Shown here: piece by piece, positions 3,075-37,380 of the stretch | How the letters are laid out: each line of letters starts with the position of its first letter | How positions within the stretch are numbered: position 1 is the stretch's first letter | Origin: a virus | Lineage: Duplodnaviria > Heunggongvirae > Uroviricota > Caudoviricetes | Virus record (IMG/VR): IMGVR_UViG_2718218398_000011 | Reading direction: 5' to 3' (one strand) | Length of the DNA: 37,380 bases | Notes under the pieces: model-generated | Seen by the model: the letters and a program-made list of their open reading frames with translations, nothing else | Databases searched by the model: none | What the model was told of the DNA's origin: nothing | Program-made: the position numbers and the translations under genes

Positions 3075-3164
3075 TTTTCGAGTTCTCCCCATTTTTGCTA
3101 AATTCACAATAATGATACCGCATTATTCCATTTTGAAAACTTAAAAGTTCTCCATTGCGAAGAA

Positions 3165-4265
3165 TCATTCCATTTCGAAATCATCAATCTTCACTTCAAG
3201 CTCCAAACTGGTCGTAAAACCGTTATTCGGGCTGACAGTATGCGTCAGAGTCGTAATGGTCCATTCCGCATCATCTATCGGCTGTTTAAAGCCACTGACT
3301 TTCACTGGCATTTCCGTGTAGAGATCTGCCCGACCTTCTGCCAGTTGTAGCGAGAATGACGCAACGCCGCGTTGCAGGCGTTCCCACTGCATTTTCGCCG
3401 CCCGTTCGGCGTTGCTCCGGTTGGCATAGGTGCGATTAAGTACCAGCACGTTTTCATCTGTACCCACCAGGTAATCGCCCTGCTTCGCTTCCGGCTCTTT
3501 CTTCTGCTTCTTAGTCCTGCGCTTACGCTTCACCGTGGTGCTTTCTTTCTTCGCGGGTTCGCGGGTATGCAACCAGCTGGCAATTACGCCCGTGTAGGCT
3601 CCGCGATCTGCCAGGGTAAAGCGGTGACTGTCGCCGTCCTTACGTGTGATTGAGATCACCGGCAGTGGTTTACCGCTGGCGCTTTTGCCCTGTCCCTGCC
3701 GGATGAATAACAGATTGCCATTTTTCACCGACGCGATGGCACCGTACTGGCGCGCCAGCCGCATCAGAAAACTGCCGTCACTCTCATTAGTCTGGTCTAT
3801 ATGCTCCACGGGCTTATCCGACAGGTCTTTACCCAGTGCCATCTTCAGCTTATGACGCGCGGCTATTTCCTTCACCACTTCCCCGACAGTGGTCTTGTGC
3901 CACGATTTTTCACGGCGGGTATTCAGCGTTTCCCTAAAATCAGCACTTCGCGCCCGGATAGTCAGGCGGTCCGGTGCGCCAGTGTGTTCAATCTCGTCCA
4001 CTGTGAATGCCCCTTTCGGGAAAAGCGGCTGCCCCTTCCAGCCCAGCGCCAGCGTAATAACCGCACCACGGCGCGGCAGCACGATTTTTCCGTCAGCGTC
4101 ATCCAGCTCCAGATCAAGCTGGTCCGCTTCAAAGCCCCGGTTATCCGTCAGCGTCAAACTCATCAGGCGGTTATCCAGCACAGTGGTGATATCCCTGCCC
4201 TCAATACTGATGCTGAATGCGGGAGTTTTGTTGCCTTTGTTAAGCAGTTCAGAGCTGAAATTCAC
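3165..4265 (-). CDS. D: tail protein D (late control gene D)
   Basis: 366-aa translation is P2 gpD-like; position after U and T. Confidence 0.9.
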   Translation of the reverse strand: MNFSSELLNKGNKTPAFSISIEGRDITTVLDNRLMSLTLTDNRGFEADQLDLELDDADGKIVLPRRGAVITLALGWKGQPLFPKGAFTVDEIEHTGAPDRLTIRARSADFRETLNTRREKSWHKTTVGEVVKEIAARHKLKMALGKDLSDKPVEHIDQTNESDGSFLMRLARQYGAIASVKNGNLLFIRQGQGKSASGKPLPVISITRKDGDSHRFTLADRGAYTGVIASWLHTREPAKKESTTVKRKRRTKKQKKEPEAKQGDYLVGTDENVLVLNRTYANRSNAERAAKMQWERLQRGVASFSLQLAEGRADLYTEMPVKVSGFKQPIDDAEWTITTLTHTVSPNNGFTTSLELEVKIDDFEME

Positions 4266-4747: not shown

Positions 4748-7700
4748 GCGTCGTATCCCCCCTGATCGCTGTAGTTACTCCTGGCTTTTGCCTTCAGCCT
4801 GCGTTCACGTTCATCAAGCTGGCGTGCCACCTCCCGCGCAATATCCTGCGCACTTTGTCCTGGCTGCGTCTGAATGATGATCTGCGTCGGTGCCTCAATC
4901 CGTTGAACGAGCGGCACAGTGGCTGCGCGACTCACAATTGCTTCTCCACCTTTCGCGGGAAGTGCCAAGGGGTGCAACGGTGGAAGCTCTGCTGGCGCGG
5001 CAGCAACGCCCATCATTCCGGCAACAACGGCAGCCAGTGCAGCTGTATTTCTCCGGCTGGTCACATTTGCCGGGCCGTTAACAATTTCCGGTCCGTTTTC
5101 ACCGACGATGCCAAACTGCCCGCGCGGGATATACCCGCCGCTGTCATACATCCCCGCAAAGCCATATCCCCATGATGGAAAACCACCCGATGGCATCATC
5201 ACTTTACCGTCTGCATTCACCGTCGCAGGTTGCTGACGCGTCACGCTTTCCGGCAGTTTTGCCTTTGCGGCCTCTTTACTGACAATGCCGAGCTTCTCCA
5301 GCAACCAGGAAACGCCGGATTTCAGGGAGTCCAGCGGATGCATGACCATATTCAGCCCTTCCGCCAGTGCCTCCCCGAATCGCCGCCCCATTGCCGCTGC
5401 GCTCTGCAGTTCGGCAGAGGTCGACTTAACGGGCGTCAGCAGATCAGTAAACCAGCCCCACAGCGCCTGCACTTTGTCGCCAATCCACTGGAACACGGGC
5501 TTAAGCGGTTCGAACGCTGCACTGATGGGACCTGCCGCCGCTTTGAATCCTTCCACCACGCCACCGAGAAATGCGGTGATGGGTTGCCAGTATTTCCAGA
5601 CAACCAGCGCCACGCCCGCCAGTGCAGTAACCACAAGACCTATCGGACTGAGCAGAGCACCTAACAGACCAGATATGGCATACAGGGCAACGCGCAGCAT
5701 CGCCAGTGGACCAGATGCCAGTACTCGCAGCACCGTGCCTGCGGCGGCCAGTCCACCGCGCAGTACCGCCAGAGGATTCATAAACATCACAGCAACAGCA
5801 CGTAAACCGGATAATCCAGACCGCAAAAGTGCAACTGGCGCACCTGCTACAGTTTTCAGGACATTTCCCGTCAGTGATGCCGTGCGGCGCAAAGACGACA
5901 ACGGCGCAGTAAGTAAACCTGCGGCGTTGCCCGATGAAGCAAGCCCGCGTCGCAGCAGTGCCAGTGGAGCGCCAGCCAACCAGGACAACGCGTTGCTGGT
6001 TCGAGTTACTGCTGCCATAACGGAAGGTAACGTTTTGATACCCAGCACAGAGAATCCCAGACGGATCACTGCCAGCGGCCCCAGCACTGCAGCCATCGCC
6101 ACCGCTAAGGTGCCTAGGCCGACGGTAACCGCAGCCACAACAGCCGATGCTTTCATCAGTGTGCCTGTCAGTTCCGGGTTAGCTTCCACCCAGCGACGCA
6201 ACGCCCCCGTGACGCTTTTCACCGTGTACAGAATATCCATCAGCGGCTGGCGCAGCGTTTCGCCCAGACTGCTGAAGGTGTTCTGCGCTCCGGTTTTGAC
6301 CAGCAACCACTGCGCAGAAAGTGAATCCTTGTTAATGTCGGATTCTTTCTGCATGGAGCCGAGCGCATCATTGCCCGCTGTCAGTTTTAACTGACGCTGC
6401 AGTTCCGGCAGGTTGTTTGCCAGTTTCGCCGCATCATCGCCAAACTCTTTACCAAACAACATAGTCATGGCAGACAGGCGCTTGTCCTGCGGCAGCGCGT
6501 TTACCTTCTCCAGCACGCGCTGGATGGTTCCCATCGCATCCTTCGTCATCTGCTTTTCAATCACTTCAGGATTGAGTTTCAGCAGATTCATCCCTTCAAA
6601 GAAACTCTTGCTTTGCATGGTGGCAATGGACAATTCACGCACCATCGCGTTTGCTGCACTGGCTGCAACCTCTGGCGCAGCGCCCAGTGTCAGGAAGGTG
6701 GAACCCAGCGCCGCCGCTTTACGATAATCCAGACGGTCAGCCACACCGCCCAGACGTTGCATCACATCAATGATGTCTGCCCCTTTCGACATGGCGTTAT
6801 CATCCAGATAGTTCAGCGCATCGCCGAGCTGTTCAATATTGCGGGTGGGGATTTTGTAGAGCTGGGCGATTTTCCCCAGACTTTCTGACAGTTCATCCGC
6901 TGGCAGCTCAAAGGCTGTTGCCGCCTTTGCTGCCGTACTGGCGAAGGCCAGCAGGTCACGTTTCTGATCTTCCCAACTGTCGTCAGGGTTTGCGACGTTC
7001 ATGCGCGCACCACCTTCAACCAGTGCAGCGAAATCCACCGCACCGTTTTCCATCGGCAACTGTTCGCTGGCAGCCTTGATGGCATCCTGCATTTCATAAA
7101 AACGTGCAGTGCGGTTGCCATTATCGTCACGCAGACCATTGACCTGCTTTGCCACACCTTTCATGGCATCTTCCATGCTGGTATAGCTTTTTACTGCCGC
7201 CATCACTGGTGCGCCCATTGCCAGCCCTGCAGCCGTGGTGGTGGCTCCGGCACCTGCAATACGATCACGCACCTCCAGCGAACGGGCATAACTGGCACGC
7301 GCTGCATTCATCCTGCGCTGAGCTTCCCCCAGTCGCTTCAGCCGCGCCTCCTGTTTCGAAAGTTCCTGGTTATAACGTGATGTTTCACGGGCTAAACGGG
7401 CAGTTGCTCCCGCATCGTCTTTCGCAGAAATTCCCGCCCGGTACAGTTCAGCACGCACAAGCGCCGTCTGCTGCTGCAGCTTTTTCTGGCGTTCTTCCAG
7501 GCGCTGAACAGCCAGCCGTTGACGGCCCAGAGCAACAACCTGACGTTGCGAAGGCGGCCCCATCGCTCCCAGTTCCTGACTGAGCAAATTTGCACGCTGG
7601 CGGGCATAGTTCAGCCTGTCGCCTAATTTCTGATTTTCTGCCTGCAGCTTTCGGAAGCTGTCCAGACTGCTCCCGGCCTGATCAAGCTGCTTTATTGCAT

Positions 7701-10144: not shown

Positions 10145-10717
10145 TCAGGGGGATTCATTGATCTTATTTGCCGGAAATTTTCTATAAATGGTAGAAACGC
10201 CTACATCAAAAATCAGTGCAATACGCTGTCTTGATTCTCCGGCCTCGAGTAAACGCCCAATCTGTGCCCACTGTTCGGTGGTCAACTTAGGACGGCGTCC
10301 ACCTACTCTGCCTTTGGCACGAGCTGCAGCCAGCCCTGCCCTGGTACGTTCAACTATCAGTTCGCGTTCCATTTCAGCCAGGGCACCCATGACATGAAAA
10401 AAGAAACGGCCCATTGGGGTACTGGTATCAATACTGTCAGTCAGGCTTCTGAAATTCACACCACGCTGGCGCAACTCTTCTATCAGCGTAACAAGATGCC
10501 GCATACTGCGCCCCAACCTGTCCAGCTTCCAGACAACCAGCGTGTCTCCTGCCGATAGTGTCCTGAGTAGTTTTTTCAGCCCCGGTCTGTCGGACTTAGT
10601 GCCACTGATTTTGTCCTCAAAAATCCGCTCACATCCCGCGCAGTTCAGTGCATTACGTTGCAAATCGGTGTTCTGGTCATTTGTTGACACGCGTACATAG
10701 CCAATAAGCATGATCAT
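10145..10717 (-). CDS. serine DNA invertase (Hin/Gin/Pin/Cin family)
   Basis: N-terminal GYVRVSTNDQ serine-recombinase motif and C-terminal HTH; 190 aa; adjacent to an inverted-repeat crossover site. Confidence 0.9.
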   Translation of the reverse strand: MIMLIGYVRVSTNDQNTDLQRNALNCAGCERIFEDKISGTKSDRPGLKKLLRTLSAGDTLVVWKLDRLGRSMRHLVTLIEELRQRGVNFRSLTDSIDTSTPMGRFFFHVMGALAEMERELIVERTRAGLAAARAKGRVGGRRPKLTTEQWAQIGRLLEAGESRQRIALIFDVGVSTIYRKFPANKINESP

Positions 10718-10766
10718 CCCCCTGAATAAAAACCGGAGATGATGCCAGTTAGCTGTTACCTCTGCA

Positions 10767-10794
10767 TTTTCTTAAACGTTGGTTTGGGAGAAGC
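10767..10794. repeat. inversion site, left (gix/hix-like)
   Basis: TTCTTAAACG-TT-GGTTTGGGAGAA; the inner half and core are the exact inverse of the site at 12623..12650. Confidence 0.6.
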
Positions 10795-11113
10795 GGCAAA
10801 ACGGAATGTGGGAACAGGGGAAAATCAGATACCTGATATGTCAGCTTATTCATCAGGATCTGGCTGGCAAAAATTGCCTGATGGTTCAATTGAACAGTGG
10901 GGAAGAATTAATTTCCCGAATAACGCCGCGGCGGTATCTACAAATGTGACTTTCACCATTCCTTTTACGCAGGAGCCAGACGTAGTGATTGTATATGACG
11001 GCGGTTTTGGTGGTGGGAATATGTGGGGCGCAACTAACTGGACGAAAACAGGTTTCGTTGCTCATTGTAACTATGGCTTTGAAGGTGGAGCCTTCTACGC
11101 GAAAGGGCGTTAA
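10781..11113 (+). CDS. alternative tail-fibre C-terminal exon (silent in this orientation)
   Basis: Open frame runs through the left site with the same GGT TTG GGA GAA (GLGE) codons as gene H at the right site; no independent start expected. Confidence 0.55.
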   Translation, partial: GLGEAAKRNVGTGENQIPDMSAYSSGSGWQKLPDGSIEQWGRINFPNNAAAVSTNVTFTIPFTQEPDVVIVYDGGFGGGNMWGATNWTKTGFVAHCNYGFEGGAFYAKGR

Positions 11114-11115
11114 TT

Positions 11116-11556
11116 ATGAAATATTTGTATGTTGATAATCTGGCGTACCCTTATGCCCTCCAGTCTGTTTACGCTGCAAAAGGCCAATGGCCCGAAGGTA
11201 AAGGCGTGGATATAGACGAAGCTATTTTCAGGGAATATTTCCATGATACGCCGCCTGACGGTAAGTACAGAATTACCGGAGACGATGGAATGCCAGCATG
11301 GGCAGATGTTCCACCGCCAACACGTGAAGAACAAATTGCATCAGCCGAAACTAAAAAGCAGCAATTGATTAATCAGGCCAACGATTATATGAACAGTAGA
11401 CAATGGGCTGGTAAAGCGGCTATTGGTCGTCTGAAAGGTGAGGAACTGGCGCAATATAATTTGTGGCTGGATTATCTGGACGCACTGGAGCTGGTCGATA
11501 CTTCCAGTGCACCAGATATTGAATGGCCTACTCCTCCGGCAGTTCAGGCCAGATGA
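11116..11556 (+). CDS. tail fibre assembly protein (alternative)
   Basis: 146 aa; C-terminus (WLDYLDAL...APDIEWP) resembles the Tfa on the opposite strand. Confidence 0.7.
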   Translation: MKYLYVDNLAYPYALQSVYAAKGQWPEGKGVDIDEAIFREYFHDTPPDGKYRITGDDGMPAWADVPPPTREEQIASAETKKQQLINQANDYMNSRQWAGKAAIGRLKGEELAQYNLWLDYLDALELVDTSSAPDIEWPTPPAVQAR

Positions 11557-12130
11557 CATCCGGCGCGGTGCTGATATCTGTTGCCGTCACCGCGTCAATG
11601 TAATCCAGCACAGCGTTAAGCCGGGTTGTTTCTGCCTGCGTCAGTTTCCGCCCGGCCTGTAATTTCAGTTGAATCAGACTAATGGAAGCCATTGCAGTAT
11701 CAATCAGTGACTGACGCTGTGCTTCTGCCGCGTCTACTGCGGCGCGATGCTGTGCCTCAGTATCGGTCACCCATTTCTCACCATCCCATTTATCGTATGG
11801 CGTTAATGGGGCGATAGTGGTTGTATTTTCGGGGTAATCACCCGGAGTTGTGATTTCTTTGGTGTCTCCCGTTTCGGTGTTATAGACGATTTCACCGCGA
11901 TGGTCTGGCACATATTCCCATGAGTTTAAATCTGCCGAACGGCAGATTGCATAACCAGCCTTATGTATACCAGGTTCATCCAGACAGGAATATGCCGGGA
12001 TACCAACACCAACGGCAAGATATTCATTTGAAGTGGAAATATATTCCCGAGTTTCACCATCATAGCTATAGACGGTAATATTCCCCGCCTTCGTGGCAAT
12101 AAGCTCGCTATTTAATACAGCGTTATCCAT
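11528..12130 (-). CDS. tail fibre assembly protein
   Basis: 200 aa, directly downstream of H; conserved Tfa C-terminus (LDYIDAV...APDVIWP). Confidence 0.8.
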   Translation of the reverse strand: MDNAVLNSELIATKAGNITVYSYDGETREYISTSNEYLAVGVGIPAYSCLDEPGIHKAGYAICRSADLNSWEYVPDHRGEIVYNTETGDTKEITTPGDYPENTTTIAPLTPYDKWDGEKWVTDTEAQHRAAVDAAEAQRQSLIDTAMASISLIQLKLQAGRKLTQAETTRLNAVLDYIDAVTATDISTAPDVIWPELPEE

Positions 12131-13686
12131 TATGCAGCTCTCACAATATAATTAAATGACGTATTACGTGGTCGTACTGATATCCATGCACTATAAAAAC
12201 CGTCTTCTGCTGTTCTCTGCGTTCCCGTAATGGAGTTATCAGACGAAGCTGGAACATAGTTACTGCTGTCGCCAGCTTTAGAATTAGCAGGTATCCCGCT
12301 TGTTTGTACTTTATCGGCGGAAGCAAATGCTATCCCCACCTTGACAGAGGTTGTTGTATCAACCCCGTAATAATCCTGTAACGCTGTACGAATAAAAGTT
12401 GCATCCTGACCACTGAGTAGTGATCGTCCACTGTCTACACCGCGTCCATCATCCCAGCCACGAATAAACTCACCGCGTAAATCAGGCAATTTATTTGTCG
12501 GGTAAGCCTTTGCCAGTTCCGGGTATTCTTCAGCAGAAAAAGCTGCACCATTGCATTTCAACCAGCCTGTCGGTGGTGTAGCTGAAGGCCACGGAACAGG
12601 CACACCAACCGGTAATGCTGAACCTTCTCCCAAACCAAGGTATGCGAGAAGACCAGCAACATCCTTTCCACTCAAATTAGTCAGCGTATTGTCCAGCGGT
12701 TGTTTACCTGCCAGTGCATTAAGCATTGTCGTGGCAAAGTTCGGGTCATTCCCCAGCGCCGCCGCCAGTTCGTTCAGTGTATCCAGTGCCGCAGGTGCAG
12801 AACCCACCATTGCCGCAATCGCCGATTTCACAAATGCCGTGGTGGCAATCTGTGTATTGTTGACCGACTGTGCCGCAGTCGGTGCGGTTGGCGTTCCGGT
12901 GAGTGCCGGACTCGACAGCGGCGCTTTCAGTGCCAGCGCATTGTTAATGGTGGTACTGAATTTCGGATCATTGTTAATGGCTACGGCTATTTCTTTCAGC
13001 GTGTCCAGCGTGGCTGGCGCATCATTAATAAGAGCCGTCAGTGCCGCCTGAACAAATGCGGTGGTCGCAACCTGCGTGGTGTTATTCCCCGTCGCTGGCG
13101 TTGGCGCTTTGGGTGTCCCGGTAAACGTAGGACTTTCTTTGGCTGCATACTGTGAATGCGGGTCCGGTGCGGCAAGATGTTTTGCCATCTGATCATCCGC
13201 GTACACCTTCAGCTCCAGTGCCTTGTCATCCACATACTTGCGGGTTGCCAGCACTACAGCAGGGTCGATTTTCAGGGTGATATTGTCCGTGCTGCTGGTA
13301 ATCAGCACCATGCGCACGGTCTGGGTACGCCCGCTGCCTTCAGCCAGTTGCGGCTTATAGCTTTCCGGGCAGTTGCCCACGGCAATCAATGCCCCTGACT
13401 CATCAAACAGGCCCACTTCACGTATCCACCAACCGCCCTCGTTTTCAGGGATCACCTGTTCAGCAATAATCTGGCTGCTGTTCTGTGGGTCGATATAGAG
13501 CATATTCAGCGCAGCCCGACGTTTCTCATTTACCAGTGCACTCTGCTTTGCGTCCGGCGTCGGCAATGTTCCGCCACCATCGCCCACCGCCATATGGGTA
13601 ATTTTTAGCGGCACACCGAGCGCGGCGGCGCTGGCAAGTTTCGCCGCGCCAATATCCGTCAGCAGGGTATAAAATTTTGTGCTCAT
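12130..13686 (-). CDS. H: tail fibre protein H (constant N-terminus plus currently fused variable C-terminus)
   Basis: 518 aa, P2 gpH-like N-terminus with repeat-rich shaft; the inversion site lies inside the codons for LGLGEG. Confidence 0.9.
   Translation of the reverse strand: MSTKFYTLLTDIGAAKLASAAALGVPLKITHMAVGDGGGTLPTPDAKQSALVNEKRRAALNMLYIDPQNSSQIIAEQVIPENEGGWWIREVGLFDESGALIAVGNCPESYKPQLAEGSGRTQTVRMVLITSSTDNITLKIDPAVVLATRKYVDDKALELKVYADDQMAKHLAAPDPHSQYAAKESPTFTGTPKAPTPATGNNTTQVATTAFVQAALTALINDAPATLDTLKEIAVAINNDPKFSTTINNALALKAPLSSPALTGTPTAPTAAQSVNNTQIATTAFVKSAIAAMVGSAPAALDTLNELAAALGNDPNFATTMLNALAGKQPLDNTLTNLSGKDVAGLLAYLGLGEGSALPVGVPVPWPSATPPTGWLKCNGAAFSAEEYPELAKAYPTNKLPDLRGEFIRGWDDGRGVDSGRSLLSGQDATFIRTALQDYYGVDTTTSVKVGIAFASADKVQTSGIPANSKAGDSSNYVPASSDNSITGTQRTAEDGFYSAWISVRPRNTSFNYIVRAA
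12623..12650. repeat. inversion site, right (gix/hix-like), inside gene H
   Basis: TTCTCCCAAACC-AA-GGTATGCGAGAA; the inner half is the reverse complement of the left site's inner half. Confidence 0.6.
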
Positions 13687-24957: not shown

Positions 24958-26610
24958 TTACAAATACCGTCTAACACGTATTTTATTAATGCTCGACTCA
25001 TTTCCAATTCTTATCAAAGCATTTCTCGCTTTTTCTCCGATGCGTTTCATTCTTTCTGAACCATTGCTATACCCACCAAACTTAAGAGCAGTAGCTATTA
25101 TTGAATCACCACCATCAAGAATGACTTTTTTAAATAAATCATAGTAGTCATCCTCTGAGGCAGCATCCAATATTTCCTCGTGCCTATCAGACCAACCATT
25201 CTGACTTGATAATTTTATTAGAACATCCTTTATAGAACCATCCAGATTTAAAGTAGTAGAATAATCTTGGATTTTTGACTTTAACTCAGCATCTTTTATA
25301 GGATGAACATTCATGTAAATAGATTGAACATATTCCTTAAGAGCATCATTGCCGTAATTAATAAATTTACTTATTAATTCACTTGCTTTAATATTTTCAC
25401 CTAAATCTCTATACAGTCCGACAACACTATCCAAGTCACTTGGAGTTACATACTCTATCCCACCAACCACCGCTTGATATAGATTATCAATAACCTGATT
25501 TCGGTTATCTTCAAATGAATTATAGAAAAGCTTCCATGCTTCAAACAGTGAACCTCGCTTACTATCACGGATAAGTTCATCATTCCTTAGACTTACTTGC
25601 CTTTGGAAATTGTTCATATCAATATATCCATGCCTTACCATGTCTATAAGGACTTCATCAAGTTCGTTTGTTTTTTTATAATCATATATAAGCAAAGTAT
25701 TAAGCCATTTTTTTTCTTTTCCATCCTCTTTTTCATCACGCATATAGATATTTCTCATATTTCTAATATACTCCAATGATGGTACATCTCCATCTGGAGT
25801 AAATGCGTAATGACTCCAACAATACAAAGTTAAGGAGTGTGCGACTTCATTTGCAATTTTTTCAAAATTAACGTTAATGCCAGGTAACAAGGCTAGCAAA
25901 AACCGCTCTATTTTTTTCAGTATCCTAATATTCTTAATACCCAGGGAAATGGAGTATTTGCTTAATAATTTATGAACATCAGAATTATTTTTATATGCTA
26001 TAACTGCACATTCTTCTGGAGTAGGATTATAGGTAATCTCTCTATCAATAACCTTTTCTTTATAAGTGGAGTAGTCATCCATACCACTTGTCCCGTTATT
26101 AAGTAAAAGAACCACCTTACAATTTTTTTGTTCTTTCAATAAAGAAACCAACCCTAAGACATCTTTCACTTCTAAATTTTTACCACGTCTTTCTAAGTCA
26201 TCTATGACTACAATAACATTAGTAATTGACATAAATGACATTGACTCAAGTGTCGTAGTGAAATTTTTCAAAAAAGGTGTATCTTTTAACACACGAGCGG
26301 TCTTTCTAGTGCAGGATTCAAGAAGCCCCTTTGCATTTTGTGTTGCTGTTTTTAAATTAGGTTTGTTTCCAATGAAATCTTTCGTAATTGTATTTTCAAA
26401 GATGGAGTATTTTAATGCGTCCAATGAATTAACACCAAAAAGAGAGACGTAACTATATCTATTAAATGCAATCTTATTTTTATTTTCCTTTAAGAAAGCA
26501 TTCCAAGTATAGGTTTTCCCAATCCCCCACTCACCCTGAATAGCCATTACCTCAGGTTCTGCAGATGAAATAAAGTCTGACAACTGTTCTTTAATATAGT
26601 CTAATGACAT
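24958..26610 (-). CDS. KAP-family P-loop NTPase (cargo; candidate anti-phage protein)
   Basis: Walker A GEWGIGKT and Walker B VVIDDLERR in KAP-type arrangement; start placed at MSLDYIKEQL, which has GGAGA six nt upstream (track ORF starts at 26640); strongly AT-rich. Confidence 0.7.
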   Translation of the reverse strand: MSLDYIKEQLSDFISSAEPEVMAIQGEWGIGKTYTWNAFLKENKNKIAFNRYSYVSLFGVNSLDALKYSIFENTITKDFIGNKPNLKTATQNAKGLLESCTRKTARVLKDTPFLKNFTTTLESMSFMSITNVIVVIDDLERRGKNLEVKDVLGLVSLLKEQKNCKVVLLLNNGTSGMDDYSTYKEKVIDREITYNPTPEECAVIAYKNNSDVHKLLSKYSISLGIKNIRILKKIERFLLALLPGINVNFEKIANEVAHSLTLYCWSHYAFTPDGDVPSLEYIRNMRNIYMRDEKEDGKEKKWLNTLLIYDYKKTNELDEVLIDMVRHGYIDMNNFQRQVSLRNDELIRDSKRGSLFEAWKLFYNSFEDNRNQVIDNLYQAVVGGIEYVTPSDLDSVVGLYRDLGENIKASELISKFINYGNDALKEYVQSIYMNVHPIKDAELKSKIQDYSTTLNLDGSIKDVLIKLSSQNGWSDRHEEILDAASEDDYYDLFKKVILDGGDSIIATALKFGGYSNGSERMKRIGEKARNALIRIGNESSINKIRVRRYL

Positions 26611-26670
26611 GTACATTCTCCGAGATAGATAGTCATCCATATTATAACCCGAGTACTATCAAAGTAATAA

Positions 26671-27039: not shown

Positions 27040-27693
27040 ATGAGTAAATACAAACTTTTCGCACAGCTATCAAGATATTCACTTGAAGCGCAGATTGATG
27101 ATTTCGAAAAATATATCCTAGGAGCAGGCGGCCAAAACAGAGTTGACTTAGCGGAATTAAAAAAAGCATATGAAGATGAAAAAAAGAATGCTCCTGACGA
27201 TTATATTAATTACTTAGAAGACTATTATTCAGAGCAATATGATTTCTTAGTTAACATACAACCAAATATTTTTAATAAATCTGCTTTGGTATCTTTATAC
27301 TCATGCTTAGAGCACAACCTAAACGACTATTGCAATATATGTCAAAGGATTGTAAACACCAATATATCAGTAACCGATTTTAATGGTGATGGCATCCACA
27401 AAGCAAAAAGATATTTAACAAAATTAATGGATATAAACTTTGGCCTGTCACAAGAGTGGCAATTCATGACAGAGTTTAACAAAGTAAGGAATTGCATAGT
27501 TCATGCTAATGGAGACATTAAAAAAATGAGCACAGCTGTAGCCTTAAAAAATATCATTGATAAAACACCTACTCTTTCATTAAACAATGAAAATAATATA
27601 ATAATCTCCTTAAATTATTTAAAAGATACTATCACAAAAATTAGAAAACTCTTTCAATGGTTATATACACATCTGGATCAATCATCGAAATGA
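27040..27693 (+). CDS. hypothetical protein with HEPN-like RNxxxH motif (cargo; candidate abortive-infection RNase)
   Basis: 217 aa; EFNKVRNCIVHANG at residues about 146-158 fits the Rx4-6H HEPN signature; AAGGAA ribosome-binding site; AT-rich. Confidence 0.5.
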   Translation: MSKYKLFAQLSRYSLEAQIDDFEKYILGAGGQNRVDLAELKKAYEDEKKNAPDDYINYLEDYYSEQYDFLVNIQPNIFNKSALVSLYSCLEHNLNDYCNICQRIVNTNISVTDFNGDGIHKAKRYLTKLMDINFGLSQEWQFMTEFNKVRNCIVHANGDIKKMSTAVALKNIIDKTPTLSLNNENNIIISLNYLKDTITKIRKLFQWLYTHLDQSSK

Positions 27694-27942: not shown

Positions 27943-28809
27943 TTAGATGGCTTTGCTTCGATATTCAATTTCTAAAATCGCCTTTGTCATTGCCGCAATA
28001 GTTATAGCTTCTACCATAGTCAATTCAGGCTTGTTCAAGCTTCCGTGTCCAGCAGTAGGTAATTTGTTGCGTAAATCATAAATATCTTTAACAGCATCAA
28101 TAAGATTCTTAGGTAATTTTGACATTTTTTCGAACTGTTTAAAAAAACCACCCAATGACTCATTTGCCACATTCGGGTTTTGAGTGATTTCCTTAGCCAT
28201 AGTTTCTAAAATATTAGAGGCTGCGTGCAGTGCACCTGCCGGATCATTATTATCCAAGCAATTATTCATTCTATCTATTTGCTGAACGATATTTGGGTGC
28301 AATCTTTTTAAGTAATCACTAGCCAATTCTTCATTAAAATTTTTGACACTTTCAAAAACATCGCAATCTAAATAAAATTTAGGATTGACTGACATCCATG
28401 TATATTTCCAATCATTTTCTAAATTATCTTTTTCCGCAATACGCCTGCCAGTGTCCTGATCTATCTCATCAACATATTTACACATATAATCGGCGTAGTA
28501 GTGTAAATATCTAAATGATATTTCTGGGCAAAAATTACTAACTGATGCAAGGCCGCCATATTCTTTTGTAGTAACTGTAGGGACTTCTTCATCACATAAA
28601 GATGAGAAAGTGGTTCTTTCCCAAAATTCGCCCAACTCTTTTTCTTTCCTAGTTGCCATACCAGCTATCACATTGATGCTTGAGAGCAAAACTACACTCT
28701 GATAGTATCGAGGACATCTGTATGAACTAGCATATGGGCATATTGATGATGCTTTACGATTAATACGCTCTTTTTCCCACCAATTTTTATCAGGAATAAT
28801 TCTTTGCAT
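27943..28809 (-). CDS. hypothetical protein with Abi_C-like C-terminal domain (cargo; candidate abortive-infection protein)
   Basis: 288 aa; the C-terminal ~100 aa (ALHAASNILETMAKEI ... DLRNKLPTAGHGS ... ITIAAMTKAILE) resemble the Abi_C/HEPN-type domain as I recall it; AT-rich. Confidence 0.45.
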   Translation of the reverse strand: MQRIIPDKNWWEKERINRKASSICPYASSYRCPRYYQSVVLLSSINVIAGMATRKEKELGEFWERTTFSSLCDEEVPTVTTKEYGGLASVSNFCPEISFRYLHYYADYMCKYVDEIDQDTGRRIAEKDNLENDWKYTWMSVNPKFYLDCDVFESVKNFNEELASDYLKRLHPNIVQQIDRMNNCLDNNDPAGALHAASNILETMAKEITQNPNVANESLGGFFKQFEKMSKLPKNLIDAVKDIYDLRNKLPTAGHGSLNKPELTMVEAITIAAMTKAILEIEYRSKAI

Positions 28810-29297
28810 AATTTAGCTACTATCTCACGAGTGAATGAATGTTTAGCCTTCTGCACAGTTTATCAGTTCCGGCATGCCTACTGCTACCCCACTGATTCAA
28901 CTTCAAGTTATGAGTTAAAGCGATTCGGTTTCGCTAGATGACACACTAGTGTTAATTTATGGATAAAAATTTATCACTTAAAATTAACTAATGCCTGTTG
29001 CGACCAAAAGTGTGCTGGAATATTATTTTCGTCTGACCTATTATCAAGCTAATTATCCAAATTAGAGTTACTCTCATTCATCAGCAACAAATAAATACAC
29101 CTGTTCACTTTCTCAAAGTGTTCCTGTTTTATTTTTAAAGCAAACAACGCCGCCTATTCGTCCGAATGTACAACAAACATCAGGTTCTGACACAAAGTGG
29201 ACGATCACTTATCAAAATGACCGCCCACCTTACACCTCATTTCACTCGTTGCCCAAACTCCCCCCAACAGGATAAATCCTCTTGGGGGCAACGTTTC

Positions 29298-29531
29298 TTA
29301 ATGCAGCCAGCTGTCGTCTTCCCACACCTTCTGCATAATTTTCATCACTTGTTTTCTTTCTTCATCCAGTTGCAGTCCGGTCAGTTCCACACCGTTAGAG
29401 CTACCTTTACGGATACGAATTACCGTTTTTGGATACAGGGGGCGCAGATTGCGGTAAAGCTCGGATTCAAGGGCGTCCAGGGTAGACTGGCTAATCTTCT
29501 GCTCTTTATCGATCATTATTTCAATGCGCAT
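29298..29531 (-). CDS. DinI-family protein (Tum C-terminal-like; SOS-induced)
   Basis: 77 aa from MRIEIMIDKEQ...; DinI-like throughout (RIEI..., ...VWEDDSWL). The track ORF starts at 29603 and overlaps the upstream gene. Confidence 0.8.
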   Translation of the reverse strand: MRIEIMIDKEQKISQSTLDALESELYRNLRPLYPKTVIRIRKGSSNGVELTGLQLDEERKQVMKIMQKVWEDDSWLH

Positions 29532-29541
29532 AAAAGTCACC

Positions 29542-29730
29542 TCAACTGATGACATCCATTGAGCGGTTGTATTCGTGGGTTCTGATCTTTGCCATGAGTT
29601 CATCAGTCAATTCAGAAACCCACTGCAGAGCCAGCCCCTTCTCTTCATCACTACACTCACTAGCCGCTACAAGCTTAAGAAAAAAATCAATGCGCTGGAG
29701 CTTCAAAGACTCCAAAAAATAGTCCTGCAT
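29542..29730 (-). CDS. small SOS-operon protein (possible Tum N-terminal-like antirepressor part)
   Basis: 62 aa from the ATG preceded by AGGAGG; first gene downstream of the LexA box. The track ORF starts at 29832, upstream of the box. Confidence 0.5.
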   Translation of the reverse strand: MQDYFLESLKLQRIDFFLKLVAASECSDEEKGLALQWVSELTDELMAKIRTHEYNRSMDVIS

Positions 29731-34439: not shown

Positions 34440-34958
34440 TCACAGCAAACCGAATGAAGCACCGAGGCCAGTCACGGTATCAACTGCACTCGCCATCGCA
34501 GGGTTAGCCTGTAAACGGGCCTGCAATGAAACAGCAGCCAACGCCATCAGTCGTGTTACAGAGTTAATGCTGCTGATAGCATCACGACGACCTGCACTGG
34601 TTTTTACATCGCCAGATACCGCACCTGCAGCAACACGCCCGATCTCTGCGGTTGCACTCATGACGTAATGTGGCAGTTTCTCTTTTGCCACCTCATTAAT
34701 TGGTACGCATGGCAGGCAGTGAATCTGTGCCAGAAAACCATCTACCAACGTTGAATCTTCAGTCAGATCGGTAAGCAGCCAGATTTCTGGTGCGGTTAAT
34801 AAATGAGGTTGAGCTGGGTTCAGCTTGTTCCGCAGAATCTGCACATTCATGCCCGCACGTTCTGCCAGTTGCACCAGATTGTGGCGCAGTGCGAATGCAC
34901 GACAGGCTTCATCAAAATGTGGATGTTTGGAAACTTGGTAATCAAACATGGTTTTCAA
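34440..34958 (-). CDS. cII: CII-like transcriptional activator (phage 186 type); could instead be a P2 B-like protein
   Basis: 172 aa; N-terminus ([23 protein letters not shown]...) matches my recollection of 186 CII; sits directly after the apl/cox-like gene. Confidence 0.6.
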
Positions 34959-35013
34959 CTCCGAACTTATCGCAAAATCGAACTCAGCGTCTTATTGCGA
35001 AAATAGACGTCTA

Positions 35014-35217
35014 TTAAGCAGACAAAGCATCAACAGTCAGAGCAGCCAGGTTAATCATTACCTTTTCACGTTTTTTGTCTTTACGAAGACGATGACGAGG
35101 TAGTCGGCCATCAGCCAACATGTCGTTAATCGTATCAATAGAAAGGCCAGTCAGTTCGCTATAACGTTCGATTGTGACATGTGGTGTATTCAGAGTAATT
35201 GAAATGTTAGGTGTCAT
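35014..35217 (-). CDS. Apl/Cox-like small DNA-binding protein (excisionase/repressor of the lysogenic promoter)
   Basis: 67-aa basic protein, first gene of the leftward early operon, divergent from cI. Confidence 0.5.
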
Positions 35218-35362
35218 AAGGCAACATTCCTTCTAGATATGGCTTGTGGCGAGCCGTTGTTTGTCGTGATTAGTAGTGAAGGCTCCAAAAGAACACTTCT
35301 GGTTCAACTTTAAGATCGCTTTTGGAATCTGTCAACGAATTTTGGATTTCTTTGGAGGACTT
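35218..35362. promoter_or_regulatory. immunity switch region (early and lysogenic promoters and operators)
   Basis: 145-bp gap between the divergent apl/cox-like and cI genes; inferred from position only. Confidence 0.5.
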
Positions 35363-35932
35363 GTGGATTTCAATAGCGGCGGTAAGAAAGCCATAGAACG
35401 TTTAGTTGAAGCATATGGGTTCGGTACCCGTCAGGCTCTCTGTGATCATTTAGGTGTTTCTAAGAGCACCATGGCAACGCGCTATATGCGTGATATTTTT
35501 CCAGCAGATTGGGTAATCCAGTGCGCCCTTGAAACGGGCACCTCGCTTAATTGGCTAACAACAGGGCATGGTTCAAAGCAAGCATCAGCAAATACAAATA
35601 CTATAGAAGTAGAAAAATATTTATTGTCTGATGGAGCATTGCAGAAAGACGGTTTTTATATTTTTGATAAGGAATTTCTACCCTCTACGTTTAAAAAACC
35701 TTTTGTCATCACAGATAACAATTCTGAATTTATTTGTGATAAAGAATTTGATGATATACGTGATGGTAAATGGGTAATAAGTATTGATGGCGAAATAACG
35801 ATCCGTGACATTACTCGTTTACCCGGTGGAAGAATCTTCGTCGAGGGTGGAAACAGAGCCTTCGAATGCAAGATAGAAGACATTGAAATAATTGGTAAAA
35901 TTATAAGTTTAACAGTCAAGTATGTTAAATAG
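35363..35932 (+). CDS. cI: CI immunity repressor (phage 186 type)
   Basis: In-frame GTG at about 35363 preceded by GGAGG; LVEAYGFGTRQALCDHLGVS...CALETGTSLNWLTTGHG resembles the 186 CI N-terminal domain. The track ORF starts at 35276. Confidence 0.8.
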   Translation: MDFNSGGKKAIERLVEAYGFGTRQALCDHLGVSKSTMATRYMRDIFPADWVIQCALETGTSLNWLTTGHGSKQASANTNTIEVEKYLLSDGALQKDGFYIFDKEFLPSTFKKPFVITDNNSEFICDKEFDDIRDGKWVISIDGEITIRDITRLPGGRIFVEGGNRAFECKIEDIEIIGKIISLTVKYVK

Positions 35933-35947
35933 TACCGGGAGGAAACT

Positions 35948-36139
35948 ATGCTTGGTAAGGTATTTTTTGTGGTTTTGTCATGTTCTTTGTTATTAAACCC
36001 ACTAACTACCTATGCTAGAAATTATCCCTGCTCAGGGAAAAAGGGAGGTGTTTCTCACTGTACCTCAGATGGCAAATTCGTTTGCAATGATGGAACTATT
36101 AGTAAATCCAAAAAAATCTGTACTAAAAACTCACGATAA
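35948..36139 (+). CDS. small secreted Cys-rich peptide (moron between cI and int)
   Basis: 63 aa; signal peptide [23 protein letters not shown] followed by a ~40-aa mature region with four Cys; AT-rich. Confidence 0.5.
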
Positions 36140-36327
36140 CTTTTGCTTTTATATCTGCGTCTAAAATAAAAATGAGCCGCAGGTTAACCGCAAAAGTTAC
36201 ATGCTCACATAGCAAAAAGAATAGCCAACTTCATTATGGCTTCAGTGAGATGTATGGTCGTAGGATTTCATACATTGACACTGGTTATACATACAGTAAA
36301 AATGCTCTCTACTGGAGGGCATTTTTT

Positions 36328-37380
36328 ATGGCAGTACGAAAACTCACCACAGGGAAATGGCTTTGCGAATGTTACCCCGCCGGACGTAGTGGGCGTCGTG
36401 TGCGTAAACAATTCGCCACCAAAGGCGAAGCTCTGGCTTTTGAGCGCCACACGATGGAAGAAACCGAAGCAAAGCCCTGGCTGGGTGAATCAGTGGATCG
36501 TCGAACACTGAAAGACGTAGTTGAGCTATGGTTCAAACTACATGGTAAATCTCTAACCGCTGGGCAGCATGTCTATGACAAATTGCTGTTGATGGTTGAC
36601 GCTCTGGGCAATCCCCTTGCAACCGATCTCACATCTAAAATGTTTGCCCACTATCGAGATAAACGCCTGACGGGTGAGATCTACTTCAGCGAGAAATGGA
36701 AAAAAGGAGCAAGCCCAGTCACTATTAACCTGGAGCAAAGCTATCTTAGTAGTGTTTTTAGCGAACTATCCCGCCTGGGCGAATGGTCGTATCCGAACCC
36801 ACTGGAGAACATGCGAAAATTCACCATCGCAGAAAAAGAGATGGCATGGCTTACCCATGAGCAGATTGTTGAATTGCTGGCTGATTGTAAACGTCAGGAC
36901 CCAATTCTGGCACTGGTAGTTAAGATATGCTTAAGCACTGGCGCACGCTGGCGTGAAGCCGTAAATCTTACCCGCTCACAGGTGACCAAATACCGAATTA
37001 CCTTTGTAAGAACGAAGGGGAAGAAAAACAGAAGCATCCCTATCAGTAAAGAGCTTTACGAAGAGATCATGGCGCTTGATGGGTTCAATTTCTTCACAGA
37101 CTGTTATTTTCAATTTTTATCCGTGATGGAAAAAACGTCTATCGTGCTCCCTCGCGGTCAACTCACACACGTTCTGCGCCATACGTTTGCGGCGCACTTC
37201 ATGATGTCGGGTGGAAACATTCTGGCCTTACAAAAAATTCTCGGACACCACGATATAAAAATGACTATGCGTTACGCACATCTGGCACCGGATCATCTGG
37301 AAACGGCGCTTCGTTTCAATCCTCTGGCAACGCTGCCAAGTGGCGACAAAGTGGCGGCAGCGGTTGGCATTACCCCGTAA
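36328..37380 (+). CDS. int: tyrosine integrase (P2/186 family)
   Basis: Start at MAVRKLTTGKW with GGAGGG upstream (track ORF starts at 36172); TGARWREA box and HVLRHTFAAHF...MRYAHL catalytic region; the stop is the last codon of the window. Confidence 0.9.
   Translation: MAVRKLTTGKWLCECYPAGRSGRRVRKQFATKGEALAFERHTMEETEAKPWLGESVDRRTLKDVVELWFKLHGKSLTAGQHVYDKLLLMVDALGNPLATDLTSKMFAHYRDKRLTGEIYFSEKWKKGASPVTINLEQSYLSSVFSELSRLGEWSYPNPLENMRKFTIAEKEMAWLTHEQIVELLADCKRQDPILALVVKICLSTGARWREAVNLTRSQVTKYRITFVRTKGKKNRSIPISKELYEEIMALDGFNFFTDCYFQFLSVMEKTSIVLPRGQLTHVLRHTFAAHFMMSGGNILALQKILGHHDIKMTMRYAHLAPDHLETALRFNPLATLPSGDKVAAAVGITP
37341..37362 (+). repeat. candidate attR core, inside the int 3' end
   Basis: tggcgacaaagtggcggcagcg, matching 2834..2855 at 21 of 22 positions in direct orientation. 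Confidence 0.5.

What the first reader, a model, noticed from the sequence alone, without database searches (positions are those of the whole stretch)
35948..36139. Small secreted Cys-rich peptide encoded between cI and int
The 63-aa ORF has a clear signal peptide and a four-Cys mature region. It sits in the lysogenic cI-int transcription unit and is AT-rich, so it would be expressed in the lysogen. It has no obvious phage function, making it a candidate lysogenic-conversion factor such as a toxin, bacteriocin-like peptide or exclusion protein.
Basis: partly seen in the sequence, partly recalled or inferred. Interest (0 to 1): 0.5.

Follow-up and report, generated by a model that had tools for sequence, protein, structure and literature searches.

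The report
Prophage-borne YdcA-family periplasmic mini-protein
The small gene between the repressor and integrase of this E. coli 186-like prophage is real and encodes an exported, disulfide-bonded, strongly basic 40-residue peptide of the catalogued YdcA family; its function is unknown, but it is under very strong selection and is carried by many temperate phages, so it probably acts in the lysogen's cell envelope.

Summary
The ORF at 35948-36139 is real. It has a strong ribosome-binding site 15 nt after the cI stop, a Sec-type signal peptide (predicted cut A23|R24) and a 40-aa mature peptide (pI 9.7, about +7) with four invariant cysteines. It is not an orphan: it passes the NCBIfam YdcA-type model NF007463, and RefSeq calls the identical protein 'YdcA family protein'. 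About 12% of complete E. coli genomes carry it.

Diverged alleles sit in the same cI-int slot in Enterobacter, Yersinia and Haemophilus (unannotated in HP2/S2) prophages. The mature core shows 19-20 synonymous against 1 non-synonymous codon change. It is more conserved than the flanking CI and, except in one pair with near-identical Int, the flanking Int.

In relatives the slot holds defence genes (PD-Lambda-1, a KAP NTPase) or, in Vibrio phage K139, the periplasmic exclusion protein Glo.

The only structural relative is Dis2 of the Legionella Dot/Icm secretion system. The domain is also fused to three unrelated secreted nuclease families.

Best reading: a lysogen-expressed periplasmic accessory protein, most likely an exclusion or DNA-entry factor. 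That role is inferred, not shown. A toxin or bacteriocin role is unlikely. Moderate interest.

The parts
35307..35335 (-). Promoter-like site (TTGACA-17-TAAAGT) facing the apl/cox-like and cII genes; the likely lytic promoter (pR equivalent) of the 186-type switch.
   Evidence: Consensus scan. Position relative to the apl-like gene (35014-35217, -) and CII/CP76 (34440-34958, -). The function is inferred from the 186/K139 architecture.
35363..35932 (+). cI repressor gene (GTG start, 189 aa), the first gene of the lysogenic operon.
   Evidence: Pfam Phage_CI_repr 3e-31 and Phage_CI_C 4e-29. The RefSeq annotation of the identical locus gives the same coordinates.
35937..35943 (+). Shine-Dalgarno sequence GGGAGGA of the ydcA-like gene, 4-5 nt before its ATG and 4 nt after the cI stop codon.
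   Evidence: Read directly from the sequence.
35948..36016 (+). Codons 1-23: Sec (signal peptidase I) signal peptide [23 protein letters not shown], with the predicted cut after A23.
   Evidence: n/h/c layout and hydrophobicity. A23 is invariant or nearly so, and the AxA motif is conserved although the signal peptides are otherwise only 19-71% identical. AF2 models residues 3-14 as a helix.
36017..36139 (+). Mature 40-aa YdcA-family peptide [40 protein letters not shown] plus stop codon. It has four conserved Cys, pI 9.7 and a net charge of about +7.
   Evidence: NCBIfam NF007463 scores 115.8 bits against a cutoff of 93; phrog_6000 2e-34. Invariant residues. Purifying selection. Charge. AF2 core pLDDT 88-90.
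36140..36272 (+). 3' spacer that belongs to the cargo. It is AT-rich and strongly structured, with a long hairpin at about 36137-36199. No canonical terminator was found on the + strand.
   Evidence: RNA fold z = -4.86 for 36130-36345. Terminator scan. The segment is absent where the slot is empty (ESSI2_ev129, 78-nt cI-int gap).
36273..36327 (+). Conserved int leader: a promoter-like TTGACA-N17-AAAAAT, then a hairpin whose 3' arm contains the int Shine-Dalgarno (GGAGGG), followed by a U-run and the int ATG. It marks the right border of the cargo slot.
   Evidence: The same architecture, with different (compensatory) stem sequences, occurs in L086, L094 and L096 whatever the cargo.
36328..37380 (+). 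P2/186-type tyrosine integrase (350 aa).
   Evidence: Pfam Int_N 3e-32 and Phage_integrase 7e-22. RefSeq coordinates.

Best explanation
The ORF is the prophage copy of a YdcA-family gene.

Shown or nearly shown (about 0.9):
- It is a real, translated gene.
- It lies 15 nt behind cI with its own strong ribosome-binding site and no intervening terminator, so it should be made whenever the repressor is made, that is, in the lysogen.
- Its product carries a Sec signal peptide and four invariant cysteines. The expected end product is a roughly 4.3-kDa, two-disulfide, strongly cationic mini-protein in the periplasm.

Inferred (about 0.35-0.4): it is accessory cargo that acts on a very conserved component of the proteobacterial envelope or on DNA in transit through it. 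It would protect the lysogen against incoming DNA (superinfection exclusion, possibly also conjugation or transformation).

Proposed mechanism: the basic, disulfide-stapled YdcA fold docks either on nucleic acid or on outer-membrane-proximal lipoprotein complexes. Its relative Dis2 docks this way on DotK, DotC and DotD under the outer membrane. Docking would obstruct or mark the entry route. The same fold serves as the N-terminal targeting or substrate-binding module of secreted nucleases.
For: Identity:
- NF007463 above its cutoff.
- RefSeq names the identical protein 'YdcA family protein'.
- Homologues carry Pfam PF27300:YdcA.

Expression logic:
- SD and 15-nt spacing; no + strand terminator between cI and the ORF.
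- In HP2 the homologue's ATG overlaps the cI stop.
- In Enterobacter prophages the gene ends 3 nt before int.
- K139 has an annotated PL lysogenic operon cI-orf2-glo-int.

Export:
- The signal peptides are variable but always Sec-like, while the mature part is nearly invariant.
- K-12 YdcA is described as having a signal sequence and being predicted periplasmic (bioRxiv 10.1101/2024.02.12.579971).

Constraint:
- 19-20 synonymous against 1 non-synonymous codon change in the core.
- The mature part is 76-94% identical across operons whose CI proteins are only 28-65% identical. Int is 49-64% identical, except 98% in the window/L086 pair.

Cargo and defence context:
- The slot is empty in ESSI2_ev129.
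- It holds PD-Lambda-1 (PADLOC 3e-120) in phage 813R9.
- It holds YdcA plus a PDC-S20 KAP NTPase (1e-171) in L086.
- Rousset et al. 2022 describe the cI-int interval of K139-like phages as a defence hotspot (PMC9122126).
- K139 Glo, in that slot, is annotated 'periplasmic protein; involved in phage exclusion'.
- The family recurs in other moron slots next to TA, SocA and KilA-N cargo in Acinetobacter prophages. It also recurs in the tail region of Moraxella phages and next to ogr in a Proteus P2-like prophage.

Mechanistic hints:
- The profile hits Dis2 (7muc_AN) at E 3.4e-4.
- hhalign gives 91.7% probability.
- Foldseek's top hit is Dis2, probability 0.96.
- Dis2 lies near the outer membrane and contacts DotK, DotC and DotD (PMC8486379, PMC12716638).
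- The YdcA domain is fused N-terminally to SNase, Endonuclease_NS (3 proteins) and PLDc_2 nucleases.
Against: - No experiment on any phage-borne YdcA was found. PADLOC has no model that matches it.
- Location in a hotspot is guilt by association. The same slot could carry any lysogen-beneficial gene.
- Nuclease fusions are rare, 5 of 149 representative clusters. They are equally compatible with an anchoring or secretion role as with DNA binding.
- Loss of Dis2 barely affects the Dot/Icm machine (PMC12716638), so the fold may be a dispensable structural 'staple'.
- The only phenotype reported for the chromosomal paralogue is stress-related: sensitivity to 3-hydroxypropionate and acid induction (PMC7642389). 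It is not phage-related.
- The consensus scan did not find pL. A promoter-like element before int shows that the operon structure is not fully resolved.
Confidence: 0.4

Rival explanations
1. Host-fitness (lysogenic conversion) factor for envelope stress. The phage copy does what the chromosomal YdcA does: it stabilises or modifies the envelope or periplasm under acid or organic-acid stress. It would raise lysogen fitness with no anti-phage role.
For: - The K-12 ydcA deletion is sensitive to 300 mM 3-hydroxypropionate. ydcA is reported to be YdcI-controlled and induced at pH 5 (PMC7642389).
- Most family members are stand-alone chromosomal genes outside prophages. About 70 of the 80 species-level loci have no CI or Int neighbour.
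- The strong, broad conservation of the mature peptide fits a housekeeping-type envelope target.
Against: - A host that already has chromosomal ydcA gains little from a second copy. Yet about 12% of E. coli genomes carry the phage allele as well.
- The recurrent placement among defence, TA and exclusion cargo is not explained.
- The reported phenotype is a single growth curve in one paper, and the mechanism is unknown.
Confidence: 0.27
2. Accessory 'staple' for an envelope-spanning machine. Like Dis2, it would bind outer-membrane lipoproteins or OmpA-like proteins of a secretion, conjugation or pilus apparatus and tune its efficiency. Examples include modulating conjugative DNA transfer or competence.
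For: - Homology to Dis2, a 13-copy peripheral subunit of the Dot/Icm outer-membrane cap that touches DotK, DotC and DotD.
- One family member is fused to a T6SS VasL domain.
- UniRef labels the identical protein 'Conjugal transfer protein'. This is an automatic name and weak evidence.
- Many phage hosts that carry it are naturally competent (Haemophilus, Moraxella, Acinetobacter).
Against: - No secretion-system genes lie next to any of the inspected loci.
- E. coli K-12 has YdcA but no Dot/Icm-like system.
- The database name has no traceable experimental basis.
Confidence: 0.15
3. Secreted toxin, enterotoxin-like or bacteriocin-like cationic peptide aimed at other cells.
For: It is a small, cationic, four-cysteine, Sec-exported peptide. 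Its gross parameters resemble STb enterotoxin (48 aa, 4 Cys, basic; my recollection) or defensin-like peptides.
Against: - No double-glycine leader, and no ABC/PCAT exporter, immunity gene or maturation gene nearby. The neighbours are only cI and int.
- No sequence similarity to STb.
- A Sec signal alone delivers only to the periplasm in a Gram-negative cell.
- Homologues are chromosomal in K-12 and in rhizobia, Comamonas, Herbaspirillum and others.
- The same domain serves as an internal module of nucleases and of Dis2.
Confidence: 0.04
4. Chance ORF or non-functional remnant that hitch-hikes with the immunity region.
For: It lies in an AT-rich, recombinogenic region. It is short. The cI-ydcA segment could be exchanged as a block.
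Against: - 19-20 synonymous against 1 non-synonymous codon change.
- 445 family clusters at 50% identity.
- Curated family models exist.
- Strong SD.
- It is conserved across CI proteins that are only 28-65% identical.
Confidence: 0.01

Closest known systems
E. coli K-12 YdcA (b1419) and the YdcA family (Pfam PF27300; NCBIfam PRK10040 models NF007462/NF007463)
   Same: Same architecture: a Sec signal peptide followed by the PCSGxKGG[IV]SHC...GKFVCNDG[ST]xSxSKKxC core with four Cys. The core is 78% identical to K-12 YdcA. The window protein passes NF007463, and RefSeq names it 'YdcA family protein'.
   Different: K-12 ydcA is a chromosomal gene between rydC/cybB and hokB, not in a prophage. The window allele belongs to the separate NF007463 sub-model and fails the K-12-type model NF007462 (68.5 against 118 bits). 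It is cargo of a lysogeny operon. The function of either copy is unknown.
[quoted passage not shown]
   Same: It is the only solved structure that matches. The profile E-value is 3.4e-4, hhalign gives 91.7% probability, and Foldseek's top hit has probability 0.96 with 38% identity over 39 columns. Both share a Sec signal, the CCS-K-GG-x-x-C...G-x-x-VCN-G motif, disulfide stapling and a periplasmic location. A Dis2-like fragment carries the precomputed PF27300 label.
Glo of Vibrio cholerae phage K139 (Peduoviridae)
   Same: Same place and same logic. It is a small protein with a signal peptide, encoded between cI and int in the PL lysogenic operon of a P2-related phage, and annotated 'periplasmic protein; involved in phage exclusion'. 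Rousset et al. 2022 call this interval a defence hotspot.
   Different: There is no sequence relationship. Glo is 137 aa and lacks the Cys motif. The exclusion function is documented for Glo (Nesper et al. 1999, cited in PMC4870250; the paper itself could not be read) but not for any YdcA.
Small periplasmic or envelope superinfection-exclusion and moron proteins of other phages (T4 Sp and Imm, lambda-family Cor/Bor/Lom, T5 Llp). From general knowledge; not tested here.
   Same: All are small, exported, expressed from the prophage or early in infection, dispensable for phage growth, and act in the envelope.
   Different: No homology was detected. phrog_6000 has unknown function, and PADLOC and BFVD gave nothing. 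Several of those proteins are lipoproteins or membrane proteins, whereas this one is predicted to be soluble.
Secreted nucleases with an N-terminal YdcA domain (SNase, Endonuclease_NS, PLD/Nuc-type)
   Same: They carry the same signal-peptide-plus-YdcA module at the N-terminus (P0106, P0159, P0183, P0181).
   Different: The window protein has no catalytic domain. It is the module alone. Whether the module binds DNA, anchors the enzyme or aids secretion is unknown.

Membership tests
YdcA family (NCBIfam NF007463 / PRK10040.1-2; Pfam PF27300) | Score above the curated cutoff of the family model. | tested here: met
   NF007463 scores 115.8 bits against a cutoff of 93, covering residues 5-63 on model positions 1-58 of 58. 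PF27300 is missing from the local Pfam copy. It is, however, the precomputed Pfam label of the 98%-identical P0001 and of all close homologues.
YdcA family (NCBIfam NF007463 / PRK10040.1-2; Pfam PF27300) | N-terminal Sec signal peptide followed by a roughly 33-40-aa core with four conserved Cys and the GKKGG / CNDG-x-S-x-SK motifs. | tested here: met
   Alignments A1 and A2: P27, C28, S29, K32, G33, G34, C38, F44, C46, D48, G49, S52, S54, K55 and C58 are invariant or nearly so. An AxA motif lies upstream of the core in 166 of 179 members.
K-12-type YdcA orthologue (NCBIfam NF007462 / PRK10040.1-1) | Score above the curated cutoff (118 bits). | tested here: not met
   68.5 bits, below 118. The window protein is a paralogous, prophage-borne subfamily, not the chromosomal orthologue.
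Dis2-type Dot/Icm outer-membrane-cap subunit | Two tandem YdcA-like lobes pinned by five disulfides. | tested here: not met
   The window protein has a single lobe and four Cys in its mature part. Dis2's two lobes are described in PMC8486379.
Dis2-type Dot/Icm outer-membrane-cap subunit | Occurs in an organism or element that has a Dot/Icm (type IVB) system and is part of the complex. | tested here: not met
   No T4SS genes occur in the window or in any inspected locus. Physical association cannot be tested with these tools.
Phage superinfection-exclusion protein of the K139 Glo type | Sequence homology to Glo. | tested here: not met
   The Glo sequence has no Cys motif and did not appear in any homology search.
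Phage superinfection-exclusion protein of the K139 Glo type | Exported protein encoded between cI and int in the lysogenic operon. | tested here: met
Phage superinfection-exclusion protein of the K139 Glo type | Reduces infection by homologous or heterologous phage when expressed. | not testable with these tools
   This needs plating-efficiency and DNA-injection assays.
Class II microcin / bacteriocin-like peptide | Double-glycine-type leader with a dedicated ABC/PCAT exporter and an adjacent immunity gene. | tested here: not met
   The leader is Sec-type with a TYA|R cut site. The only neighbours are cI and int, and there are no further ORFs with family hits in 35933-36327.
Heat-stable enterotoxin STb-like peptide | Sequence similarity to STb. 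| tested here: not met
   BLASTP found no alignment at E <= 100.
Bacterial lipoprotein | Lipobox [LVI][ASTVI][GAS]C at the end of the signal peptide, with the Cys conserved. | tested here: not met
   C12 is preceded by V-L-S, lies only 11 residues from the N-terminus with K4 inside the excluded stretch, and is not conserved in the family.
Known anti-phage defence system (PADLOC-DB 2.0) | Match to any PADLOC protein model. | tested here: not met
   No hit for the peptide. Neighbours in related loci do hit PD-Lambda-1 and PDC-S20.

The most novel reading that the evidence does not exclude
The YdcA fold is a periplasmic module that recognises DNA, or the site where DNA crosses the outer membrane. 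Temperate phages of many proteobacteria would express the free module from their lysogeny operons or moron slots. It would serve as a minimal, enzyme-free blocker of incoming DNA (superinfection, conjugation, natural transformation). [quoted passage not shown] That would make it a new, very small and very widespread class of exclusion or defence factor. It would also assign a first function to E. coli YdcA and to Dis2.
Probability: 0.15. Interest if true: 0.7.

Novelty: new member of a known kind. Interest (0 to 1): 0.4.

Why it matters
The gene itself is catalogued, but nobody knows what YdcA proteins do.

This analysis shows three things about the phage-borne copies:
- They are among the most strongly constrained genes of the lysogeny module.
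- They are expressed with the repressor.
- They recur across Peduoviridae of Enterobacterales and Pasteurellaceae, and across unrelated prophages of Acinetobacter and Moraxella.

About 12% of complete E. coli genomes and a very large number of A. baumannii assemblies carry one.

If the protein is an exclusion or DNA-entry factor, it would affect phage-therapy host-range predictions and horizontal gene transfer in important pathogens. It would also give a handle on two orphan proteins, E. coli YdcA and Legionella Dis2. The Dis2 literature calls Dis2 specific to Legionellales, but it appears to belong to this wider family.

If instead it is a stress-tolerance factor, it is an ordinary lysogenic-conversion gene.

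Tried and rejected
- **Local Pfam scan of the peptide.** It gave only a spurious sub-threshold hit (GULLO2-like, E 0.075). The true family, PF27300, is newer than the local copy.
- **Weak NCBIfam hit to lpg1681_fam** (E 0.11). I read the lpg1681 paper. The protein has two TM helices, is linked to DsbD2, and shows no convincing relation, so I dropped it.
- **'ydcA' in the gonococcal genetic island and on F/ColV plasmids**. I judged these to be naming coincidences and did not pursue them.
- **Rfam scan of 34900-36600.** Nothing significant.
- **PADLOC.** No model matches the peptide.
- **Retrieving Dis2.** Searching with a 46-aa fragment returned only two truncated homologues. I used a composite sequence for hhalign.
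- **Third large homology search, with a core-domain profile.** It listed only stand-alone small proteins. The census of domain fusions therefore rests on the 149 representatives.
- **K139 literature.** Nesper et al. 1999 and Kapfhammer et al. 2002 are not held. The Glo function is taken from the GenBank annotation and from PMC4870250.
- **HP2 orf1(S).** It has no relatives outside HP2/S2 in the phage collection.
- **Context on plasmid p3ABAYE.** It is phage-like, with no T4SS link. The E. coli 'plasmid' hit is the same prophage with flanking chromosomal genes, so it is probably a mis-assigned replicon.

Full report
**1. What is there**

The window holds an E. coli P2/186-like prophage. Host genes ybjM and ybjL lie at its left end, and the integrase lies at its right end. 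The identical locus sits next to rcdA/ybjJ in many E. coli chromosomes.

The right end has the 186-type switch:
- An apl/cox-like gene (35014-35217, -) and CII/CP76 (34440-34958, -), read leftward from a promoter-like site at 35335-35307.
- cI (35363-35932, GTG start; Pfam Phage_CI_repr + Phage_CI_C).
- The 63-codon ORF (35948-36139).
- A P2-type integrase (36328-37380), read rightward.

The ORF starts 15 nt after the cI stop and has a GGGAGGA Shine-Dalgarno 4-5 nt upstream. The scan found no terminator-like site on the + strand between cI and the ORF. The ORF is 35% GC, inside an AT-rich stretch that also covers the 3' half of cI and the spacer before int.

**2. Is it a gene?**

Yes. Three lines of evidence agree.

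- The product passes the curated NCBIfam model NF007463 (PRK10040.1-2; 115.8 bits against a cutoff of 93) and matches phrog_6000 at 2e-34.
- RefSeq annotates the identical protein (WP_000900883.1) as 'YdcA family protein'. Homologues carry Pfam PF27300:YdcA. That family is absent from the local Pfam copy, which explains the empty Pfam result.
- Selection is strong. Alleles from other 186-like prophages (L086 and L090) are only 76-78% identical in DNA across the 32-codon core. They differ by 19-20 synonymous and 1 non-synonymous codon; dN is 0.02-0.03 and dS is saturated.

The mature part is 76-94% identical between operons whose CI proteins are only 28-65% identical. Int is 49-64% identical, apart from 98% in the window/L086 pair. 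The signal-peptide part is only 19-71% identical. In most comparisons the mature peptide is therefore the most conserved product of the lysogeny module.

**3. The product**

Residues 1-23 (MLGK / [12 protein letters not shown] / NPLTTYA) form a textbook Sec signal peptide. T is at -3 and A at -1.
- A23 is invariant or nearly invariant in the family.
- 166 of 179 members have an AxA-like motif just upstream of the first conserved Cys.
- C12 is not a lipobox cysteine.

The predicted mature peptide is [40 protein letters not shown]. It has 40 aa, a mass of 4.3 kDa, pI 9.7, a charge of about +7, and four invariant Cys.

AlphaFold2 with a 49-sequence alignment gives pLDDT 88-90 for the core, which forms a small beta-hairpin. 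Cleavage, disulfide formation and periplasmic location are inferred, not shown. The K-12 paralogue is described in the same terms in bioRxiv 10.1101/2024.02.12.579971.

**4. Family and distribution**

A profile search of 1.84 billion representative proteins finds 445 clusters at E <= 1e-3. A second search finds 811 clusters at 90% identity. A species-level scan finds the motif in Gamma-, Beta- and Alphaproteobacteria.

This allele is present in 647 of 5426 complete E. coli genomes and in at least 535 IMG/VR contigs. It is absent from every deposited enterobacterial phage genome. The 27 phage records that carry a homologue are Moraxella, Acinetobacter, Haemophilus and Pseudomonas phages.

**5. 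Context is conserved yet cargo-like**

Diverged alleles occupy the same cI-int position with different cI alleles:
- E. coli/Citrobacter-type prophages, as cI-ydcA-KAP NTPase-int.
- Enterobacter, where the gene ends 3 nt before int.
- Yersinia.
- Haemophilus phages HP2 and S2. There the 60-aa homologue is unannotated, its ATG overlaps the cI stop, and the secreted orf1(S) and int follow it.

Other 186-like phages fill the slot differently:
- It is empty in ESSI2_ev129, with a 78-nt gap.
- It holds PD-Lambda-1 (PADLOC 3e-120) in phage 813R9.
- It holds an unknown 349-aa protein in phage 4LV2017.

In Vibrio phage K139 the annotated lysogenic operon is cI-orf2-glo-int, and Glo is a 'periplasmic protein; involved in phage exclusion'. 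Glo is not homologous to YdcA. Rousset et al. 2022 describe this cI-int interval as a defence hotspot in K139-like phages.

Outside Peduoviridae the family sits in other accessory slots:
- Among tail genes in Moraxella and Acinetobacter prophages, next to HicAB, SocA, KilA-N and Arc cargo.
- Next to ogr at the end of a Proteus P2-like prophage.

Most species-level loci, however, are chromosomal and have no CI or Int neighbour. The K-12 gene lies between rydC and hokB.

**6. Clues to mechanism**

(a) The only solved structure related to the family is Dis2 (Lpg0823) of the Legionella Dot/Icm T4SS.
- The profile E-value is 3.4e-4.
- hhalign gives 91.7% probability.
- The chain was identified as Dis2 from its modelled lengths, 78 and 76 residues, which match Dis2 39-116 and 40-115.
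- Dis2 consists of two such lobes stapled by five disulfides. It sits near the outer membrane and contacts the lipoproteins DotK, DotC and DotD. It is dispensable for assembly (PMC8486379, PMC12716638).
- Those papers treat it as specific to Legionellales. A Dis2-like fragment nevertheless carries the PF27300 label.

(b) Some family members have two or three tandem copies.

(c) The signal-peptide-plus-YdcA module is fused to three unrelated secreted nuclease families: SNase, Endonuclease_NS (3 proteins) and PLDc_2. It is also fused to a VasL domain and, in 18 proteins, to a GPRGG-type PBCV basic adaptor domain.

(d) The chromosomal K-12 gene has one reported phenotype, sensitivity to 3-hydroxypropionate, and is said to be acid-induced via YdcI.

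**7. Interpretation**

Firmly supported: this is a real, lysogen-expressed, exported, disulfide-bonded, cationic mini-protein of the YdcA family, carried as accessory cargo.

My best functional guess (about 0.35-0.4) is an envelope-acting protective factor against incoming DNA (superinfection exclusion or a related block). It rests on four observations:
- the defence and exclusion character of the slot;
- co-occurrence with defence and TA cargo;
- extreme conservation, which implies a conserved envelope or nucleic-acid target;
- the nuclease fusions and the Dis2 precedent for docking under the outer membrane.

The rivals are:
- A stress-tolerance conversion factor (0.27).
- A Dis2-like accessory of an envelope machine (0.15).
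There is no dedicated export or immunity gene, the leader is Sec-type, there is no similarity to STb, and housekeeping-like chromosomal homologues are widespread.
- A chance ORF, which is excluded.

**8. Novelty and score**

The protein family and this exact protein are already catalogued, so the finding is a member of a known kind with unknown function. The 30 papers that mention YdcA contain nothing on phages. I did not find these points in the searchable literature:
- the conserved cI-ydcA-int arrangement across distant Peduoviridae, including the unannotated HP2/S2 ORF;
- the strength of selection;
- the link to Dis2;
- the nuclease fusions.

Interest is 0.4. It is a solid lead on a widespread orphan, but the evidence for its role is circumstantial.

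Noticed in passing
window 36273-36327 (also L086 ~5550-5611, L094 ~5775-5834, L096 ~3140-3198): A conserved element lies immediately upstream of int whatever fills the cI-int slot. It has a promoter-like TTGACA-N17-AAAAAT / ACTG...ACAGTAAAT motif, then a hairpin whose 3' arm contains the int Shine-Dalgarno, then a U-run and the ATG. The stem sequences differ between loci but stay complementary (window AUGCUCUCU/GGAGGGCAU; L086 AGUCCUCA/UGAGGACU; L094 AGCCCUC/GAGGGCU; ESSI2 UACCCCU/AGGGGUA). It looks like a terminator or translational attenuator, or an own-promoter leader, that controls int.
   Followed up: partly
[not shown]
   Followed up: yes
PDB 7MUC/7MUD chain AN (Dis2, Lpg0823) versus alignment A2: The literature describes Legionella Dis2 as specific to Legionellales and without structural relatives. 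It appears instead to be a tandem duplication of the YdcA domain, which is widespread in Proteobacteria and their phages.
   Followed up: partly
L086 4001-5529 (E. coli/Citrobacter-type 186-like prophage): Here ydcA is followed after 11 nt by a 443-aa KAP-family NTPase that matches the PADLOC candidate system PDC-S20 (1e-171), giving cI-ydcA-KAP NTPase-int. Whether the two genes work together is unknown. ydcA also occurs alone.
   Followed up: partly
window 24958-26640 (-), with unassigned ORFs at 27040-27693 (+), 27943-28809 (-) and 29166-29549 (+): The known P2 hotspot between the portal/terminase genes and gpA carries a 559-aa KAP-family P-loop NTPase (Pfam KAP_NTPase; PADLOC candidate PDC-S49, 2e-25). 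Three further ORFs there have no family hit. This is likely defence cargo.
   Followed up: partly
window 10145-10717 (-) with 10739-11556 (+) and 11528-13686 (-): A resolvase/invertase (Pfam Resolvase + HTH_7) sits next to oppositely oriented tail-fibre C-terminal and tail-fibre-assembly genes. This arrangement suggests an invertible host-range switch of the Gin/Cin type.
   Followed up: no
window ~35550-36300: The AT-rich segment (29-37% GC) is not limited to the small ORF. It also covers the C-terminal half of cI and the 3' spacer. The CI C-domain and the cargo may therefore share a foreign origin or be exchanged together.
   Followed up: no
window 36137-36199: A long, stable hairpin (AACUUUUGC...GCAAAAGUU with an inner stem) lies directly after the ydcA stop and has no U-tract. 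A terminator-like site on the opposite strand lies at 36193-36177. Its function is unknown (RNA stability element or recombination scar?).
   Followed up: no
L190-L194 (Acinetobacter baumannii prophages), gene at 4001-4177: The YdcA homologue P0302 is extremely common in A. baumannii assemblies: the index lists it in 4261 blocks. It is always followed by a DUF4236 gene, in the moron slot between the tail tube/chaperone genes and the tape-measure gene, beside variable TA, SocA and KilA-N cargo.
   Followed up: partly
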